Position numbers and translations under genes: made by a program. Positions 3,995 to 13,119 of a stretch of 64,000 bases of DNA are shown piece after piece (the stretch's first letter is position 1; every line of letters starts with the position of its first letter). This DNA comes from the human T2T-CHM13v2.0 reference genome, Homo sapiens, in the NCBI RefSeq assembly GCF_009914755.1, contig NC_060939.1, one strand, 5' to 3'. The notes under the pieces were generated by a model. It saw nothing but the letters and a program-made list of their open reading frames with translations, did no database searches and was not told where the DNA came from.

Positions 3995-6335
3995 GAGAGA
4001 ATCTCAGAGCTTGAAGACTATCTTTCTGAAATAAAACAGGCAGGAAACAATAGAGATAAAAGAATAAAAAAGACTAAACAAAATCTCCAAGAAATATGGG
4101 ATTATGTAAAGAGACAGAACCTACGACTGATTGGGGTACCTCAAAGAGATGGGGAGAATGGAATCGAGTTGGAAAACATACTTTAGGATATCATCCAGGA
4201 GAACTTCCCCAACCTAGCAAGACAGGCCAACATTTAAATTCAAGAAATTCAGAGAACTCCAGTAGGACACTCCATGAGAAGATCAATCCCAGGACACATA
4301 ATGATCAGATTCTCCAAGGTTGAAATGAAAGAAAGAATGTTAAGGGCAGCCAGAGAGAAAGTCCAGGTCACCTACAAAGGGAAAGCCATAAGAGTAACAG
4401 TGGACCTCTCAGTGGAAACCCTCCAAGCCAGAAGAGATTGGGGGCCAATATTCAACATTCTTGAAGAAAATAATTTCCAGCCTAGAGCTTCATATCTGGT
4501 CAAACTAAGCTTCCTAAGCTAAAGAGAAATAAGATCCTTTACAAACAAGCAAATCCTGAGGGAATTTGTCACCCTCAGGCCTGCCTTGTAAGAGCTCCTG
4601 AAAGAAGCACTGAAAATTGAAAGAAAAAATTGTTACCAGCCACTACAAAAACACACTGAAATACACAGACCAGGGACACTATGAAGCAACCACATGCACA
4701 ATTCTGCAAAATGACCAGCTAGCATCATGATGACAGGATCAAATTCACACATAACAATACTAACTTTAAATGTAAATGGGCTTAATGCCTCAATTAAAAG
4801 ACACAGAAAGGCAAGCTGGATAAAAGGCCAAGACCCATCACTATGCTGTCTTGAAAAGAGCCATCTGACGTGCAAATACACACATAGGCTCAAAATAAAG
4901 GGAAGGAGGAAAATTTACCAAGCAAATAGAAATCAAAGAAGGGGTTGCAATCCTAGTTTCTGACAAAACAGACTTTAAACCAAAAAGATCAGAAAAGACA
5001 AGGGCATTACATAATGGTGAAGGGTTCAATTAAGCAAAAAGAGCTAACTCTATTAATCTACATATGCACCCAACATAGGAGCACCCAGATTCATAAAGCA
5101 AAGAGTCACAAAGAGACTTAGACTCCCACACAATAATAGTGGAAGACTTTAATACCTCACTGACAATATTAGACAGATCATTGAGACAGAATACTAACAA
5201 AGATATTCAGGACCTGAACTCAGCTCTGGATCAAGCAGACCTGATAGATACCTACAGAGCTCTCCAGCTCAAAACAACAGAGTATACATTCTTTTCATCA
5301 CCACGTGGCACCTTAAAATTGATCATGTAATCAGAAGTAAAACACTCCTCAGCAAATGCAAAAGAATTAAAATCATAACAAACAGTCTCTTAGACGGCAG
5401 CACAACCAAATTAGAACTCAAGATTGAGAAATTCACTCAAAGCCACACCATCAAATGGAAATTGAACAACCTGCTCCTGAATGACTCCTAGAAAAATAAC
5501 GAAATTAAGGCAGAAGTCAAGAAATTCTTTGAAACCAATGAGAACAAAGAGACAATGTACCAGAATCTCTGGGACACAACTACAGCAGTGTTAAGAGCGA
5601 AATTTATAGCACTAAATGCCCACATCAGAAAGTGGGAAAGATCTAAAATTGACATTCTAACATCACAATTAAAAGAGCTGGAAAGGCAAGAACAAACAAA
5701 TTCAAAAGCTAACAGAAAAAAAGAACTAAGATCAGAGCAGAACTGAAGGAGATGCAGAAATAAAAACTCTCCAAAAAATCAATGAATCCAGGAGCTCGTG
5801 TTTTGAAAAAAATACACAATCAATAGACCACTAGCTAGACTAATAAAGAAGAAATGAGGGAAGAATCAAATAGACACACAAAAAAATGATTAACTCCACC
5901 GAAATACAAACTACCATCAGAGAATACTATAAACACCTCTATGCACATAAACTAGAAAATCTAGAAGAAATGAACAAATTCCTGGACACACACACCTTCC
6001 CAAGACTAATTCAAGAAGAAGTTGAATTCCAGAATCGACCAATAACAAGTTCTGAAATTGAGGCAGTAATTAATAGCCTACTGATCAAAAAAAGCCCAAG
6101 ACCAGGTGGATTCTAGGACGCAAGGCTGGTTCAACATTTGCAAATCAATAAACACAATACATCACATAACCAAAACCAAAGACAAAAACCACATGATTAT
6201 CTCAATAGATGCAGAAAAGGCCTTTGATAAAATTCAACATCCCTTTATGTTAAAAACTCTCAAACTAGGTATTGGTGAAACACCGCAAAATAATAAGAGC
6301 TATTTATGACAAACCCATAGCCAATATATTGAATA
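3995..6335 (+). mobile_element. L1 (older L1PA/L1PB) fragment: ORF1 3' half plus ORF2 endonuclease region, internally deleted near 6116
   Basis: ORF peptides IMIRFSKVEMKERMLRAAREK (ORF1), MTGSNSHITILTLNVNGLN (ORF2 start 4727), [19 protein letters not shown] (RT); many stops and frameshifts. Confidence 0.92.
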
Positions 6336-8199: not shown

Positions 8200-9044
<845 letters not shown>

Positions 9045-10149
9045 TATTATATTGGAAGAAAGAGTGAGATAATATGCTGACACTCACACCGGGCTCATGC
9101 GCCAGTAGGAGGAGGTCGCCCTCCAGAGACTGCAGGAGAAGGGGGAGAACTCCTCCTTGCCCTGGCTGTTCCTCCACCACTTCCACCGAGCCTGTGGTAC
9201 AGCACCCGAAGCTTCCTACCCACCCTAGGCCTGGCCGGGCAGGCCCCGCAGCGCTCCTACTCCCTCTTCCCGGCCCCTGGACTTGCGGCTGCTGCCACAA
9301 CTAGCGCAGATGTCACTATAACCATCGCTGCTGTTGCCCTCAATGCACTGGCCCACCCTACAAAGCTCCTACTACCTGGCCACCGCCGCAGCCCTGCCCC
9401 TGCCATGGCCACAGCTGGCCGTCCTCCTACCGCTCTGGTGCGAGGTAGTCTCGGTAGCTGCCACCAACCGCAGCAAGGCGAGCAGCAGCCCAAGGCTATC
9501 TGCAAGCTTCCAGCATGTAACTCCTCCTCCTCCTGGCATGGAACAGCTGGACACACACAGCCAAAAAAGCCTAGAGGAGAATGCAAAGACTGATAGCGTT
9601 AGAGCCTCACCTTGTCATCCTGGCCACTGGGTGGCAGGGGCCAGTCTCAGTGAAGGCACTCATATCCACCCTCCAAAGTCCAGCCTCTCCTTTTGGCCCA
9701 AGCGGGCCAGGAACTGGGACCTGGAGTGGTGACTGGTAACATCACACTGCCTGGCTCCAATCCACAGGAACCGCTGGGCCCACCAGGACTGCGCTCCTTG
9801 GGGAACAAAATCAGCAGGAACTCAGACACAGCCAGCCCTCCCACCCAAATGCCGGTTCCCCATCCCAATGCCTCCACCCACAGAGCCCTGTCTCCCCGTG
9901 GTGTCCCCGCCACTCCGTGTCCAGCGTGCCTAGGGGTGCCAGGTGGTCTCCGCAACACAGAGCGAAAAGGGCATGGCCCCGGGAACCCCGGCGGGTAAGG
10001 GGTCCTTGCCGTGCTCAGGATTACTGCGGAAACGCCGTGCGCTCGCTGCGCTCTAGCAGGAGCAGGAGGAGATCGCCTTTTAGAGTCTGAAATCCAGAAA
10101 GAGGAAGAAGGCTCCTTCCTTGGAGACCCTGTTGCTGCAAGCTCTGCCG

Positions 10150-11397
10150 CCACCAGCAAGGCAGCCCCTGATGGCGCCCCTAATCCGCTGCCTGATGTTG
10201 GCTCTGGGATAGCGCCCCCAACACCGCCCCTCGCCACTGCAATGTAAAACCCAATAGCGCCCCCAACCCATCCCTGCCTCGGACGTCGCAGCACCAGATA
10301 ACTCCCCCATCCTACCGTCTGCCGTCGGCCATGCAGCCACGGATAGGACCTCCAACTAACCCCCGGCTGCGGGCAGTGATGCCCCGGAGAGCACGGCCAC
10401 CTGCTCCATGCCGTCAATAGTGCAGCCATGGATCCTTAAGGTCCCCAACCCCCTCCCCACGACGAGCAGTGCAGCCCTACATAGCAGATAGCACCCCCAA
10501 CTGTCCCCCACCCAGGGGGAATGATGCCCTGGATAGTGCACCCCACCCGCACCCCGCCATGGGCAGTGCAGCCTCCGACAGCACCCCTAACCTGTATACC
10601 GCTGCCAAAAATATGGTCCCCGATAGCACACCAAACCCAGCCCCCACCACAAACAGTGCAGCAGCTGATAGAGCACCTAACTCGCCCCACCGCCACTGAC
10701 CACAGTGCAGCCCCCGAACGGTGCCCACAACCCACCCCACCACCCCGCCTGCCACCGGCCGGGTATCACCCCCAAACCGCCCCTTGCTGTGAGGAGTGTA
10801 TCCCCTAGTAGCGCACCCAAACCTGCCCTCTATCATGGGCAGTCTGGCCCGATAGACCCCGAAACCGCACCCTCCAAGCACCTACCCGCACCCACCGCTG
10901 CCCCGCCCCACCACCAGCAGTGTAGCACCTGATACTGCCTCTAACCTCTCCCCTGCCATGGACATTGCAACCCCACATAGCGCCCCCAACAAGCCCCCAC
11001 CATGGGCAGTGCAGCCCCAGATAGCATCCCCACCCCGCTGTCGGCAATGAAGCCCGACCAGTAAGCACCCCCACCAGTCCGCACCCTAACCAGCCCTCCC
11101 ACCACCATGCCGCCGGCAGTGCAACCACAATAGCAGCCCCAACCCGGCCCCTGTCGCGGGCAGTGCAGCACCCAATAGCACCCCCAACCAGCCCTACTGC
11201 TGCCATCAATACAGCCCAAGATAGTGACCCCAACCCGCCCCCCACCAACCCCCCCCCCCACCCGCTGCTGAGGGCAGTGCAGCCCCGGATAGCACACCTA
11301 AAAGCAGTGACGCCCAAAATAACACTCTAGTACACCCAAAGTAGTGACACCTGGAATAATACCCCAACCAGCCCCCGCCGCGGGCAGCCCTGGATAG
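10150..11397. repeat. Degenerate GC-rich tandem repeat (~40-50 bp unit, approx. CAGTGCAGCCCCGGATAGCACCCCCAACCCGCCCC), C-rich on +
   Basis: recurrent cagtgcagcc / gatagc(a/g)cccc / aacc motifs, e.g. at 10467, 10564, 10654, 10702, 11007, 11161, 11275. Confidence 0.85.
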
Positions 11398-11402
11398 CTT
11401 AC

Positions 11403-11750
11403 CTACCCCATTGCCTTTCTACACTCTGGCCAGCTGCAGTATCTGTCGCTGCCACCAACCACAGCGAGGCCAGCCAGGGAGGCGAGCCAGGGAGGCGAGC
11501 CAGCGAGGCCAGCCGCAGTCCTGCAGGCTCTAGCCTCCAGCCTATGGTAGGTGCTTTCTCCTTCTTTCCTTCCTGTAGCCAAGCACGGAGCAGCTGTCAC
11601 TGCCAGCTGCCTCTCTCCATTGCCACCACACACCATTCAAGGCTCCAGGGCTCCAGGTTCCAGGCTCCAGCCTGCGGCAGCACAATCTGCTGCCGCTTTC
11701 TCCAAACTCTGCGGCAGAAGTACAGGTTAACACACGATAGCCTGCAACAG
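11403..11750 (-). ncRNA. LINC01193: Predicted first exon of a LINC01193/CT60-type cancer-testis lncRNA (or paralogous copy)
   Basis: reverse TATA at 11773-11780; strong donor AG|GTAAGC at 11402; lies ~100 bp downstream of MIR5701 on the same strand and opposite the NF1 pseudogene, matching the recalled 15q11.2 arrangement. TSS is inferred. Confidence 0.55.
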
Positions 11751-11770
11751 CGCGACGCCCCCTTAGCATA

Positions 11771-12000
11771 CCTTATATACTGGGGGGTTGTGCAGGCCTG
11801 GTTCTCGGACTTCACGTTCTGATTGGATGAGAGAAACATCTACGCCTACTCTGATTGGACGTTATTTTCATGTTCTGATTGGATCAGAACAAGTCTTAGG
11901 CTAACCAATCAGAACGTGACAATAAAGTCCAATCAGAGTAGGCCTAGTGTTTTCCTCTCATCCAATCAGAACATGTAGTTTATAATCTCGGTATATAAAG
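11771..12000. promoter_or_regulatory. Palindromic bidirectional promoter: 3 reverse plus 3 forward CCAATCAG (NF-Y) boxes flanked by two outward TATA boxes
   Basis: ATTGG at 11822, 11854, 11878; CCAAT at 11905, 11929, 11962; TTATATAC 11773-11780 and GTATATAA 11991-11998. Confidence 0.75.
11853..11934 (-). ncRNA. MIR5701: MIR5701-type precursor hairpin (mature UUAUUGUCACGUUCUGAUU = 11907-11925)
   Basis: reverse complement GATTGGACTTTATTGTCACGTTCTGATTGG...AATAACGTCCAATC (82 nt) matches the recalled miR-5701 hairpin; inverted repeat is visible directly. Confidence 0.8.
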
Positions 12001-12019
12001 CATGTTAAGAGATAGAGTT

Positions 12020-12261
12020 GCACTAGTCCAGCCTCGTCGGCATCTGACTTCATAGCTGCTCCATTGCCAGCTTGGAGTAGGAGGTGCCAGCCACTGCATG
12101 CTGGAGGCTGCAGCCTACCGGGCTGTGGCTGGCCTCCCTGGCTCACCACCTCGCCGGCTTGCCTCGCCTTGCCTCGCCTTGCCTCGCTGGCTTGCCTTGC
12201 CCGCTGCGGTTGGTGGCAGCGATGGACACTGTAACCGGCCAGAGTGTAGAAAAGCGTCGGG
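12020..12261 (+). other. Predicted mirror-image first exon on + ending in donor GG|GTAAGT (12262)
   Basis: TATA 11991-11998; diverged inverted copy of 11403-11600 (GGTTGGTGGCAGCGA...GGCCAGAGTGTAGAAA...GGG|GTAAG). Confidence 0.5.
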
Positions 12262-12267
12262 GTAAGT

Positions 12268-12692
12268 GCGCTATCCAGGGCTGCACTGCCCTTGGCCTGG
12301 GACGGGTTGGGGGCCCTATCTCAGGCGTCACTGCCCACCTTGGGTGGCTGGTTAGGTGTGCTATCTGGGGCTGTGCTGCCTGCACCCGGGGGTGGTTTGG
12401 GGGCCCTAACCGGGGCTGCACTGCCCTCGGCGGGGAGCCTGTTGGGGAAACTATCCCAGACTGTATTGCTGGCAACAGTGAGGTGGGCTAAGTGTCCTAT
12501 CCAGGGCTGCACTGCACGGCTGTTGCGGGGGGGTGGTGGTTTCAGGTTGAGGGTGCTATGGGGTGCTGCAATGCCCGTGGTTCGGGGAGGCGGGGCGGTT
12601 TGGGTGTGTTGGGTGTGCTATTGCGGGGGGGCTACACTGCTGGTGGCAGGGGGCAGGGTGGGTTGGGGGCCATATCAGGGGCTGCACTGATT
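12268..12692. repeat. Inverted copy of the GC-rich tandem repeat (G-rich on +)
   Basis: gggctgcactg / gctatc / gggttggggg motifs at ~12279, 12414, 12505, 12680 are the reverse complement of the 10150-11397 unit. Confidence 0.8.
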
Positions 12693-12885
12693 GCTTTAGC
12701 TAGGGTTTCCAGTACTATGTTAAATAACAGTGGTGACAGTGGGCATCCTTATCATGTTCCAGATCTTAGAGGAAAAGCTTTCCATTTTTCCCCATTCCAT
12801 ATGATTCTAGCTGTGGGGGTCTCTCATGTGGTTTTTATTGTGTTGCAGTATGTTTCTTCTGTACCCGTTTTTTGAGGATTTGTAG
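12693..12885 (-). mobile_element. L1 ORF2 fragment
   Basis: ttccagtactatgttaaataacagtggtgacagtgggcatcctt...cttagaggaaaagctttc. Confidence 0.8.
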
Positions 12886-12909
12886 CATGTTCCCCAAATT
12901 GAATATACC

Positions 12910-13043
12910 ATTTTTTAAAAAGAGACTGAGTCTTGCTGTTATGTTGCCCAGGCTGGTCTCAAACTTCTGGACTTACGCGATCCTCTTCTGCCTCAGCCTT
13001 CAGATAGCTGCAGCTATAAGCATGCACCACCGCACCCAGCTTG
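12910..13043 (-). mobile_element. Alu monomer (FLAM-like)
   Basis: gtcttgctgttatgttgcccaggctggtctcaaac...ccaccgcacccagc. Confidence 0.7.
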
Positions 13044-13119
13044 AAGATACTGTATTTTTAATTCCATATTGTCAAGCATTTAAGTTACTTTTCTTTAAAA
13101 AATTAATATTAATTCAAAG

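What the first reader, a model, noticed from the sequence alone, without database searches (positions are those of the whole stretch)
11403..12267. Mirror-symmetric bidirectional promoter and exon-1 cassette: head-to-head inverted duplication of a whole transcription-start unit
Seen: around an axis at ~11893, each arm carries, outward in order, three CCAATCAG boxes, a TATA box in near-identical context (GTATATAAGGTATGCTAAG on - versus GTATATAAAGCATGTTAAG on +), a homologous ~240-350 nt exon, a consensus donor (AG|GTAAGC at 11402; GG|GTAAGT at 12262) preceded by the same GGCCAGAGTGTAGAAA, and then the same tandem repeat. Typical bidirectional promoters are TATA-less and asymmetric; this one is a palindrome whose regulatory motifs stay intact while the arms have otherwise diverged. 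Established: CCAATCAG is the NF-Y consensus, and tandem CCAAT plus TATA is the architecture of testis-active, demethylation-inducible LTR12 promoters. Inference: a portable two-way gene-birth cassette at a duplication junction.
Basis: partly seen in the sequence, partly recalled or inferred. Interest (0 to 1): 0.85.

Follow-up and report, generated by a model that had tools for sequence, protein, structure and literature searches.

The report
REP522 repeat: palindromic two-way promoter
The mirror-image stretch is real, but it is one copy of a known human repeat family (REP522), not a detectable retrovirus remnant, and its CCAAT/TATA core coincides with the annotated starts of many genes and non-coding RNAs in duplicated chromosome regions.

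Summary
Around an axis at 11893/11894, each arm carries three outward CCAATCAG boxes, a TATATAA, an exon-like stretch, the same 16-mer, a GT donor and a 45-nt-period array.

It is not unique. At least 54 loci of T2T-CHM13 carry the element, and 41 of the 51 with a centre are palindromic. Print ties MIR5701, the hairpin at the axis, to the Rep522 repeat.

It is not LTR12. It shows no homology to three print-named LTR12C copies (28.3 bits, within shuffles), no outward poly(A) signal, no Pfam family and no provirus-like spacing.

The REP-type block 9059-12699 and a 188-nt repeat piece (12700-12887) lie between a chr3-derived and an NF1-derived duplicon.

An outward RefSeq gene start lies within 400 nt of the centre at 28 of 51 copies, against 0-2 of 51 at shifted controls. 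These include BAGE5, POTEE and POTEF. LINC01193 starts 31 nt after the minus-arm TATA.

The palindrome predates the family's spread. The flanking duplications date to very roughly 25-45 Myr, and the chr15 paralogue pair to about 4 Myr.

Plus-arm transcription and NF-Y binding at this locus are not shown.

The parts
9059..12699 (.). REP522-type block: distal block, 45-nt array, exon arm, palindromic core, exon arm, truncated 45-nt array
   Evidence: The chr3-derived homology ends at 9058 and the NF1-derived homology starts at 12888. In many family copies the distal block starts at the equivalent of 9059-9074. Family homology is mapped.
11749..12022 (.). Near-palindromic core between the annotated minus TSS and the predicted plus TSS (43% G+C, CpG o/e 0.71)
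   Evidence: (I7). The core hits on both strands at 41 of 51 copies.
11819..11882 (-). Three CCAATCAG boxes of the minus arm (11819-26, 11851-58, 11875-82)
   Evidence: Across 54 arms, the CCAAT columns have a 0.977 share of the commonest base.
11905..11969 (+). Three CCAATCAG boxes of the plus arm (11905-12, 11929-36, 11962-69)
   Evidence: Each box is identical in 33, 41 and 37 of 54 arms respectively.
11773..11779 (-). TATATAA of the minus arm, 31 nt upstream of the LINC01193 start
11992..11998 (+). TATATAA of the plus arm; a start about 31 nt downstream (~12023) is predicted but not annotated
   Evidence: Family gene starts cluster 130-152 nt from the centre.
11407..11748 (-). LINC01193 exon 1 (RefSeq NR_040094.1); donor G|GTAGGT with GT at 11406-11405
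   Evidence: The homologous donor is used by LOC124907500 at another chr15 copy.
12023..12261 (+). Plus-arm exon-like stretch ending at GGG|GTAAGT (GT at 12262-12263); homologous to exon 1 of the minus arm; no transcript annotated
10129..11402 (-). Degenerate 45-nt-period G+C-rich array (intron 1 of LINC01193)
   Evidence: D1-D5; lag-45 autocorrelation.
12262..12699 (+). The same 45-nt-period array on the plus arm, cut short at about 12700
   Evidence: D6, D7; I2, I5-I25.
9059..10128 (-). Distal family block holding LINC01193 exon 2 (9611-9796)
   Evidence: The block is present on one side of the core at 39 of 51 copies.
11853..11934 (-). MIR5701-1 hairpin, which is the centre of the palindrome (mature 11907-11925)
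   Evidence: Fold -35.4 kcal/mol, z -8.4. Print: hsa-miR-5701 overlaps the Rep522 repeat.
12700..12887 (.). Piece of a high-copy interspersed repeat between the array and the NF1-derived DNA (a neighbour, not part of the element)
   Evidence: 4194 first-look candidates, with matches at 82-94% on many chromosomes.

Best explanation
Window 9059-12699 is one copy of REP522, a low-copy interspersed repeat that the papers read here class as a satellite. It lies in pericentromeric, acrocentric and other duplicated regions. With a 188-nt piece of another repeat (12700-12887), it fills the seam between a chr3p12-derived duplicon and the NF1-derived duplicon of NF1P1.

The family's ancestral core is a near-palindrome of roughly 270 nt. 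Each arm has three outward-facing CCAAT boxes of the NF-Y type, usually followed by a TATA box. I infer that this core works as a divergent RNA polymerase II promoter. On the minus arm it fires LINC01193 from 11748, and the repeat also supplies that RNA's first exon, splice donor, first intron (the 45-nt array) and second exon. At other copies either arm starts other genes.

The MIR5701-1 hairpin is simply the axis of the palindrome read as RNA. The element shows no sign of retroviral descent, and its likeness to LTR12 is functional analogy.

Shown: the anatomy, the family census, the junction, the annotated gene starts, and the lack of LTR12 homology.
Inferred: NF-Y binding, promoter activity of the plus arm at this locus, and testis- or hypomethylation-linked activity.
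For: Family and name:
- 40 loci came from a DNA search and 14 more from motif patterns.
- 41 of the 51 copies with a centre match the core on both strands.
- Read as passages: hsa-miR-5701 overlaps the 'Rep522 repeat' (10.1101/2021.12.09.471935), and the BAGE locus holds a large REP522 region (PMC3560060). BAGE5 starts 144 nt from a copy's centre.

The palindrome is ancestral:
- Within-copy arm identity (median 0.827) equals the between-copy identity of opposite arms (0.826).
- Both are below the same-arm identity between copies (0.858). This was measured on 29 non-redundant copies.

Promoter role:
- 28 of 51 copies have at least one outward RefSeq gene start within 400 nt of the centre (33 starts, median offset 133). 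Five copies have divergent pairs. Eight shifted controls gave 0-2 of 51.
- The LINC01193 TSS lies 31 nt from the TATA, and 11 of the 33 starts have a TATA-like motif 20-40 nt upstream.
- 72 of 102 arms keep three CCAAT boxes. CCAATCAG columns score 0.954 against 0.847 for spacers (p = 1e-4).
- REP522 is enriched in lncRNA exons (10.1101/189753, passage) and is up-regulated at the 8-cell stage (PMC6545021, passages).

Junction.

Not LTR12.
Against: - No Dfam or RepeatMasker run was available. The REP522 name therefore rests on two printed links and the family's distribution, not on a model match.
- No transcript is annotated from the plus arm here, nor from either arm of the 99% paralogue at chr15:18.86 Mb.
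- Many of the 33 gene starts belong to predicted LOC models. These may lean on multi-mapping reads and on paralogy, so they are not independent.
- Only 11 of the 33 starts have a strict TATA-like motif upstream. TATA columns are less conserved than spacers (0.788 against 0.847).
- 23 of 51 copies have no annotated start.
- One paper calls REP522 'found mostly in telomeric regions', whereas my census is mostly pericentromeric or acrocentric.
- NF-Y occupancy, methylation and tissue pattern at this locus were not testable here.
Confidence: 0.8

Rival explanations
1. The locus is a head-to-head pair of ERV-9 (LTR12) solo LTRs, or one rearranged LTR12. On this reading the finding is a retrovirus remnant of that family.
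For: LTR12 also carries repeated CCAAT boxes bound by NF-Y and tandem repeats of about 41 nt (review PMC11853044, passages). A loose CCAAT pattern also picks up other CCAAT-rich repeats in the genome.
Against: - Window 9000-12800 was compared with three print-named LTR12C copies taken from the reference (beta-globin upstream, PGPEP1L promoter, LINC01419 promoter). These are 74-85% alike among themselves. The best window hit was 28.3 bits (E 0.049), inside the 22.9-35.6 range of 20 shuffles.
- Only 1 of 54 family loci has an LTR12C piece, and it lies more than 1.1 kb from the core.
- Here the CCAAT boxes lie in a unique core and the 45-nt arrays lie downstream of the start. In LTR12 the repeats are upstream, in U3.
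- This element has a strong TATATAA and no AATAAAA.
- There is no AATAAA/ATTAAA on the outward strand in 2,690 and 865 nt of the two arms.
- The family has dozens of loci on 13 chromosomes, not the 4,000-6,000 dispersed copies of LTR12.
Confidence: 0.02
2. REP522 as a family descends from some other very old LTR or retroelement promoter that sequence comparison can no longer recognise.
For: The order CCAAT boxes, TATA, a transcribed stretch of 240-340 nt, then a strong splice donor resembles an LTR plus leader (inference). The origin of REP522 is not stated in any paper I could read.
Against: - There is no poly(A) signal after the start.
- The ten longest ORFs of 9000-12700 match no Pfam family.
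- No two family centres on one chromosome lie closer than about 75 kb, so nothing is spaced like a provirus (centres).
- Copies sit in duplicated blocks rather than being dispersed.
- The core is a palindrome, which LTRs are not.
- Primer-binding-site and target-site-duplication tests were not run, because the ends are degenerate arrays.
Confidence: 0.07
3. The mirror is a local inverted duplication made at this chr15 junction, and not an inherited family feature.
For: The extended mirror is a minority state. The exon/donor block lies on both sides at 8 of 51 copies, on one side at 30 and on neither at 13. Arrays lie on both sides at 6 of 51. A secondary inverted duplication of the long arm in this sub-lineage is therefore possible.
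Against: - The core palindrome is present at 41 of 51 copies.
- Arms within a copy are no closer to each other than arms of different copies.
- The chr18 copy L003 shares the extended mirror at K2P about 0.20, so the mirror predates this locus.
- The outer arms here are only 73-76% alike.
Confidence: 0.1
4. The element is inert satellite-like DNA. On this reading the gene starts at its copies are annotation artefacts from multi-mapped reads, and the MIR5701 hairpin is its only product.
For: Many of the starts belong to predicted LOC models. The copies are paralogous, so one transcript could seed several models. A preprint lists hsa-miR-5701 among putative miRNAs that merely overlap known repeats. 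In human liver the BAGE REP522 region carries H3K9me3 and no Pol II.
Against: - Some of the starts belong to named genes: LINC01193 (NR_040094.1), BAGE5, POTEE and POTEF.
- Starts fall at a consistent 130-152 nt from the centre and, where a TATA is present, 26-36 nt from it.
- CCAAT columns are the most conserved.
- The same BAGE region becomes transcribed in a heterologous setting.
- REP522 RNA rises at the 8-cell stage.
- No Rfam family reached its gathering score; the best was 40.5 against 74.
Confidence: 0.1

Closest known systems
REP522 (a repeat family called a satellite in the papers read here; the 'Satellite/telo' class label and the older name HSREP522 are recalled, not from a call)
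   Same: MIR5701, the axis of this palindrome, is stated in print to overlap Rep522. The BAGE locus is stated to hold a large REP522 region, and BAGE5 starts at a copy. REP522 is enriched in lncRNA exons, matching exons 1 and 2 of LINC01193 lying inside the block.
   Different: I found nothing contradictory. In the papers I could search, none describes the family's palindromic CCAAT/TATA core or its use as a gene start. One paper places REP522 mostly at telomeric regions, whereas my census is mostly pericentromeric, acrocentric and interstitial duplications.
LTR12 / ERV-9 long terminal repeat
   Same: It has multiple CCAAT boxes of the NF-Y type and nearby short tandem repeats, and it acts as a promoter for host genes that are silenced epigenetically.
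   Different: There is no sequence homology. The repeats are upstream of the start in LTR12 but downstream here. LTR12 has a weak or absent TATA; this element has TATATAA. This element has no R/U5-type poly(A) signal, is palindromic, and has dozens rather than thousands of copies.
Divergent (bidirectional) CCAAT-box promoters of host genes
   Same: There are two outward starts less than 300 nt apart with CCAAT boxes between them. Five family copies carry annotated divergent gene pairs.
   Different: As general knowledge (recalled), typical bidirectional promoters are CpG-island, TATA-less and unique. This one is 43% G+C in its core, often has a TATA on each arm, is a near-palindrome and is repeated at 54 or more loci.
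Pericentromeric interspersed repeats at the boundaries of duplicated blocks (recalled from work on pericentromeric duplications; no paper could be retrieved here)
   Same: The REP-type block, with an adjoining repeat piece, lies between a chr3-derived and an NF1-derived duplicon. Six of 9 NF1P pseudogenes lie 4-17 kb from a family copy.
   Different: Junction status was checked at this one locus only.

Membership tests
REP522 | Match to the family's curated model (Dfam/RepeatMasker) | not testable with these tools
   No Dfam library or RepeatMasker is on hand. The reference's own masking lists no repeat between 8836 and 13082.
REP522 | Printed assignment of a landmark inside the element to REP522 | tested here: met
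   hsa-miR-5701 is given as overlapping the 'Rep522 repeat' (passage). MIR5701-1 is 11853-11934, the axis of the palindrome.
REP522 | Homologous copies at loci that print assigns to REP522 (BAGE) | tested here: met
   The BAGE locus holds a large REP522 region (passage). BAGE5 starts 144 nt from the centre of copy L037.
LTR12 (ERV-9 LTR) | Sequence homology to LTR12 copies | tested here: not met
   Best hit 28.3 bits (E 0.049) against three print-named LTR12C copies; 20 shuffles gave 22.9-35.6 bits.
LTR12 (ERV-9 LTR) | U3 with 5-17 repeats of about 41 nt carrying CCAAT, GATA and GTGGGGA, upstream of the start | tested here: not met
   The six CCAAT boxes lie in a non-tandem core. The 45-nt arrays begin after the splice donors, downstream of the start.
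LTR12 (ERV-9 LTR) | TATA-less or an AATAAAA-type box, then R/U5 | tested here: not met
   There is a TATATAA on each arm, no AATAAAA in 10100-12700, and no outward AATAAA/ATTAAA in either arm.
LTR12 (ERV-9 LTR) | 4,000-6,000 dispersed copies | tested here: not met
   54 loci were found on 13 chromosomes, in duplicated regions. The census is a lower bound.
Any LTR or provirus | Retroviral core gene beside or inside the element | tested here: not met
   The ten longest ORFs of 9000-12700 match no Pfam family at E <= 0.01. The flanks are chr3-derived and NF1-intron-derived host DNA. ORFs outside 9000-12700 were not scanned.
Any LTR or provirus | Two copies in direct orientation 5-10 kb apart; TG..CA ends; target-site duplication; primer-binding site | tested here: inconclusive
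   The nearest same-chromosome centres are about 75 kb apart, so no provirus-like pair exists. End motifs, target-site duplication and primer-binding site were not tested, because the element ends in degenerate arrays.
Bidirectional Pol II promoter | Two divergent transcription starts less than 1 kb apart | tested here: inconclusive
   At this locus only the minus start is annotated. In the family, 5 of 51 copies have divergent annotated pairs, and starts occur on either arm. This rests on annotation only, not on 5'-end data.
NF-Y-dependent promoter | NF-Y occupancy of the CCAAT boxes | not testable with these tools
   Sequence only: six CCAATCAG boxes. That this octamer fits the NF-Y consensus is recalled. 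The figure and supplement of PMC3730095 that list NF-Y-enriched Repbase entries could not be seen.
microRNA gene (MIR5701) | Stable hairpin plus membership of a curated miRNA family | tested here: inconclusive
   The hairpin folds at -35.4 kcal/mol, z -8.4, but that follows from the palindrome. No Rfam family reached its gathering score (best 40.5 against 74, for an unrelated family). A preprint lists it among repeat-overlapping putative miRNAs.

The most novel reading that the evidence does not exclude
The palindromic CCAAT/TATA core of REP522 is a non-viral promoter cassette carried passively by segmental duplication. Where it comes to lie at seams between duplicons, it supplies a start site in both directions, and on its long arm a ready first exon with a splice donor, to whatever DNA lands beside it. 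On this reading it has repeatedly founded lncRNAs and upstream exons of cancer/testis genes: LINC01193, BAGE5, POTEE/F, CCDC144NL-AS1, MED15P9, AP1B1P1 and UBBP4. That would give one shared sequence explanation for the germline- and hypomethylation-restricted transcription of pericentromeric duplicated genes.
Probability: 0.45. Interest if true: 0.6.

Novelty: already known. Interest (0 to 1): 0.4.

Why it matters
The locus itself is ordinary: a catalogued repeat, an annotated lncRNA start and a doubtful miRNA. What may be worth a specialist's hour is the family-level picture.

One roughly 270-nt palindrome recurs at 54 or more duplicated loci. It coincides with an annotated gene start at 28 of the 51 copies that keep a centre, in either direction. 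Those genes include BAGE5, POTEE and POTEF, whose families are known to be silenced by methylation and active in testis and tumours.

If 5'-end and NF-Y data confirm this, the shared, odd expression pattern of pericentromeric duplicated genes would trace to a single portable promoter. It would also be a second, non-retroviral example of the job usually credited to LTR12.

The work also corrects the label. By every test available here, the finding is not a retrovirus remnant.

Tried and rejected
- Tandem Repeats Finder did not call the 45-nt arrays; it found only short 13-, 10- and 15-nt runs. The arrays were shown by the repeat finder and by autocorrelation.
- The promoter/terminator scan is for bacterial signals. 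It gave nothing and bears on nothing.
- Rfam gave only sub-threshold hits of the palindrome to unrelated hairpin families, on both strands.
- The loose pattern (128 matches per strand) mostly hit unrelated CCAAT-rich sequence. I took only three further family loci from it. The listing was cut (156 matches not shown), so the census is a lower bound.
- The tighter pattern gave 43 matches, of which 6 were unrelated sequence.
- The DHRS2 region (L062), fetched as a possible LTR12D, showed no homology to the three LTR12C copies beyond an Alu-sized piece. I dropped it.
- In one search, two copies (L053, L055) gave spurious arm identities of 1.0 from short overlaps. I left them out of the 54-arm alignment.
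- Positions printed are 1 too low; this was corrected.
- Four loci (L018, L021, L023, L029) duplicated others and were dropped. Three (L004-L006) are half copies without a centre and were left out of all per-centre counts.
- Literature: searches for REP522 (14 papers), HSREP522 (0), BAGE/juxtacentromeric/promoter, POTE/promoter/CCAAT, pericentromeric/segmental duplication/bidirectional promoter/cancer-testis, and LINC01193 turned up no description of a REP522 promoter or palindrome.
- One search was wasted because 'pote' matched 'potential'.
- PMC8524813 held no REP522 passage in its main text. PMC12065363 held none of my terms.
- Supplements are closed, and figures are not held. The list of NF-Y-enriched Repbase entries in PMC3730095 and the repeat tables of the REP522 expression papers could bear on the NF-Y and expression claims, and I did not see them.
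- I did not scan ORFs of the wider flanks, test primer-binding sites, or test junction status at other copies.
- Dates use an assumed 1.0e-9 substitutions per site per year, derived from a recalled human-chimpanzee divergence of about 1.2% and the 6-Myr split used in PMC7073761. They are rough. The REP part diverges about twice as fast as adjoining DNA of the same duplicon.
Full report
**1. What is there**

The sequence around 11893/11894 is a near-palindrome. CCAATCAG occurs eight times in the 64-kb window, against a shuffle mean of 2.67. Six of the eight lie in 11819-11969. Three are on the minus strand and three on the plus strand, all point outward, and they sit about 11, 35 and 68 nt from the axis on each side.

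Each arm then has a TATATAA, at 11773-11779 on the minus strand and 11992-11998 on the plus strand. Next comes a G+C-rich stretch ending in the same 16-mer (11416-11431 minus, 12237-12252 plus; none in 100 shuffles). A GT donor follows, and then a degenerate array with a 45-nt period (families D1-D7; lag-45/90 autocorrelation in both arms and none in a control).

The arm-to-arm alignment has 466 identical columns. The minus arm carries an extra stretch of about 124 nt. Within the core, 31 of 31 motif columns are identical between the two arms, against 46 of 74 spacer columns (Fisher p = 1.5e-5).

One correction: RefSeq's LINC01193 exon 1 is 11407-11748. It is the homologue of the plus-arm GGG|GTAAGT at 12262.

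**2. It is a repeat family, and the palindrome is the family's**

A genome search with 11403-12267 found 40 loci in T2T-CHM13. Most matched the core on both strands. Two motif patterns added 14 more. After dropping four duplicate fetches I held 54 distinct loci on chromosomes 2, 5, 7, 9, 10, 13, 14, 15, 17, 18, 20, 21 and 22.

Three of these are half copies without a centre. Of the other 51, 41 match the core across the centre on both strands and 10 on one strand only. The census is a lower bound, because listings were cut and further distal-block-only copies exist.

In 29 non-redundant copies, the two arms of one copy are no more alike (median 0.827) than opposite arms of different copies (0.826). 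Same-type arms of different copies are closer (0.858). The core palindrome therefore predates the spread of the family and was not made at this locus.

Beyond the core the usual unit is one-sided. An exon/donor block lies about 350-480 nt out, then the 45-nt array, then a distal block about 1.2-1.3 kb out that contains the homologue of LINC01193 exon 2. The donor block is on one side at 30 copies, on both sides at 8 and on neither at 13 of 51. This window's copy belongs to the two-armed minority, together with its chr15 paralogue and a chr18 copy.

**3. Name**

A preprint states that hsa-miR-5701 overlaps the 'Rep522 repeat' (10.1101/2021.12.09.471935, passage). MIR5701-1 is 11853-11934, the axis itself.

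A second paper states that the BAGE locus contains a large REP522 satellite region (PMC3560060, passage). BAGE5 starts 144 nt from the centre of one of my copies.

Other passages call REP522 a satellite-class repeat that is enriched in lncRNA exons (10.1101/189753) and up-regulated at the 8-cell stage (PMC6545021). I could not run Dfam or RepeatMasker, so the name rests on these links.

**4. Is it a virus remnant?**

I found no evidence that it is. A review (PMC11853044, passages) defines LTR12 as follows:
- U3 has 5-17 repeats of about 41 nt carrying CCAAT, GATA and GTGGGGA.
- The TATA is weak or absent, or replaced by AATAAAA.
- R is short and U5 has 72-nt repeats.
- There are 4,000-6,000 copies, and the family entered the genome about 30 Myr ago.

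Using the review's list and the gene table, I took three LTR12C copies from the reference: upstream of the beta-globin control region, the PGPEP1L promoter and the LINC01419 promoter. They are 74-85% alike over 0.8-1.35 kb.

Window 9000-12800 has no hit to them above noise. The best was 28.3 bits, E 0.049, while 20 shuffles gave 22.9-35.6 bits. One of the 54 family loci has an LTR12C piece, more than 1.1 kb from its core; it is a neighbour.

The architecture also differs:
- The CCAAT boxes are in a unique core, and the arrays lie downstream of the start.
- There is a strong TATA and no AATAAAA.
- There is no AATAAA/ATTAAA on the outward strand in 2,690 and 865 nt of the two arms.
- The ten longest ORFs of 9000-12700 match no Pfam family.
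- The nearest same-chromosome centres are about 75 kb apart.

A much older, unrecognisable retroelement origin of REP522 cannot be excluded, but nothing points to it.

**5. Setting**

The left flank, up to 9058, is a copy of chr3:78.05 Mb at 86-90% identity. The right flank, from 12888, is a copy of an NF1 intron on chr17 at 90% identity, belonging to NF1P1. The parental loci carry no REP sequence at those points.

In many family copies the distal block begins at the equivalent of 9059-9074. The REP unit therefore ends where the chr3-derived DNA ends. The stretch 12700-12887 is a piece of a high-copy interspersed repeat. The REP-type block and this piece together fill the seam between two unrelated duplicons. 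Six of 9 NF1P pseudogenes lie 4-17 kb from a family copy.

**6. What it does**

RefSeq places an outward-pointing gene start within 400 nt of the centre at 28 of 51 copies. That is 33 starts with a median offset of 133 nt. Five copies have divergent pairs. The same count at eight shifted positions gave 0-2 of 51.

The genes include LINC01193, BAGE5, POTEE, POTEF, SLC5A4, CCDC144NL-AS1, MED15P9, AP1B1P1, UBBP4, LINC01189, LINC01518 and LINC00408. Only 2 of 15 POTE-named genes and 1 of 3 BAGE genes start at a copy.

Starts occur on either arm. Eleven are on the donor-block side, 9 on the opposite side, 5 in two-sided copies and 8 in copies with no block in the fetched stretch.

LINC01193 starts 31 nt after the first T of the minus-arm TATA. 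Eleven of the 33 starts have a TATA-like motif 20-40 nt upstream. At another chr15 copy, LOC124907500 uses the homologous donor.

Across 54 arms the conservation values (share of the commonest base per column) are as follows:

| Columns | Share |
|---|---|
| CCAAT | 0.977 |
| CCAATCAG | 0.954 |
| Spacers | 0.847 |
| TATATAA | 0.788 |
| First 30 nt after the TATA | 0.367 |

Of 102 arms, 72 keep three CCAAT boxes and 58 keep a TATA-like motif.

Print describes BAGE and POTE genes as restricted to testis and tumours, methylated in normal tissue and, for POTE, switched on in hypomethylated ICF cells (PMC3757347 and PMC3084872, passages).

I therefore read the core as a divergent, CCAAT-driven, often TATA-directed Pol II promoter carried by the repeat. 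Several things count against this or remain unshown:
- No transcript is annotated from the plus arm here, nor from either arm of the 99% paralogue.
- 23 of 51 copies have no annotated start.
- Many of the gene models are predictions and are not independent.
- The TATA is less conserved than the spacers.
- NF-Y binding, methylation and tissue pattern could not be examined.

**7. The miRNA**

The MIR5701-1 hairpin folds at -35.4 kcal/mol (z -8.4). This is what the axis of the palindrome gives when read as RNA. No Rfam family reached its threshold. The preprint lists it among putative miRNAs that merely overlap repeats.

**8. Age**

| Comparison | K2P | K2P without CpG sites |
|---|---|---|
| REP block vs chr15:18.86 Mb paralogue | 0.009 | 0.004 |
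| Flanks vs their chr3 and chr17 parents | 0.087-0.088 | 0.076-0.078 |
| REP part vs chr21 and chr18 copies | 0.194 and 0.198 | 0.151 and 0.158 |
| Adjoining 12441-12889, same chr21 duplicon | 0.106 | 0.081 |

I assume 1.0e-9 substitutions per site per year, from a recalled human-chimpanzee divergence of about 1.2% and the 6-Myr split used in PMC7073761. On that rate the chr15 pair is about 4 Myr old. The two flanking duplications date to roughly 25-45 Myr, allowing for faster rates earlier in the lineage.

The family and its palindrome are older than its dispersal, so tens of Myr. The arms are about 17% apart. The clock is unreliable because REP sequence changes about twice as fast as its neighbours. 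Other primate genomes were not available, so this could not be checked by presence or absence.

**9. Verdict**

The anatomy is real and well read. However, the object is a catalogued repeat (REP522) with an annotated lncRNA start, not a new invention of this locus. It is not LTR12 and not a detectable virus remnant.

In the library I could search, the family-wide use of the core as a gene start was not described. It deserves a check with 5'-end and NF-Y data.

Noticed in passing
window 12700-12887: This is a 188-nt piece of a high-copy interspersed repeat (4194 first-look candidates). Its best matches (90-94%) are at pericentromeric sites on chr1, 2, 9, 14, 16, 18, 21, 22 and Y, as if it travelled in another widely spread duplicon. 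By eye it looks L1-like (recalled, not tested).
   Followed up: partly
L004, L005 (chr21:12.33 and 12.41 Mb), L006 (chr18:14.34 Mb): These are half copies. Homology to the window runs 9975-11850 and resumes at 12441-12889, so the axis, the plus-arm boxes, the TATA and the exon-like stretch are missing.
   Followed up: partly
window 9975-11850 versus 12441-12889, compared with L004: Within one duplicon the REP-type part has diverged about twice as much (K2P 0.194) as the adjoining DNA (0.106), and still more with CpG sites removed (0.151 against 0.081). The cause could be faster change, array misalignment or exchange with other copies.
   Followed up: no
window 11462-11514 and 12158-12187: Short tandem runs sit at homologous places in the two exon arms but with different units: 13 nt x 4.1 on the minus arm and 10 nt x 3 on the plus arm.
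   Followed up: no
L011 and L024 (chr22:32.82 and 32.67 Mb): The RFPL3 and RFPL2 gene starts lie on the far side of the centre and read through the palindrome (offsets -322 and +182). SLC5A4 and SLC5A4-AS1 start outward from the same copies.
   Followed up: no
L019 positions 1-435 (chr13:23.16 Mb): An LTR12C fragment lies more than 1.1 kb from this copy's core. It is the only LTR12C homology in the 54 family loci.
   Followed up: yes
chr18:12.21 and 11.70 Mb, chr2:110.13 Mb, chr5:181.84 Mb, chr17:23.26 Mb, chr22:11.10 Mb and others: Further copies of the distal block (equivalent to window 9059-9620) lie at places not in my census of cores, so the family has more, partial, members.
   Followed up: no
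window 8836-13082: The reference's own masked-repeat table lists nothing of 100 bases or more across the whole REP-type block, although it is a catalogued repeat.
   Followed up: no
NF1P1, NF1P6, NF1P7, NF1P8, NF1P9, NF1P10: Six of 9 NF1 pseudogenes lie 4-17 kb from a family copy, on chr2, 14, 15 and 22. This suggests the repeat and the NF1 duplicon spread together.
   Followed up: partly
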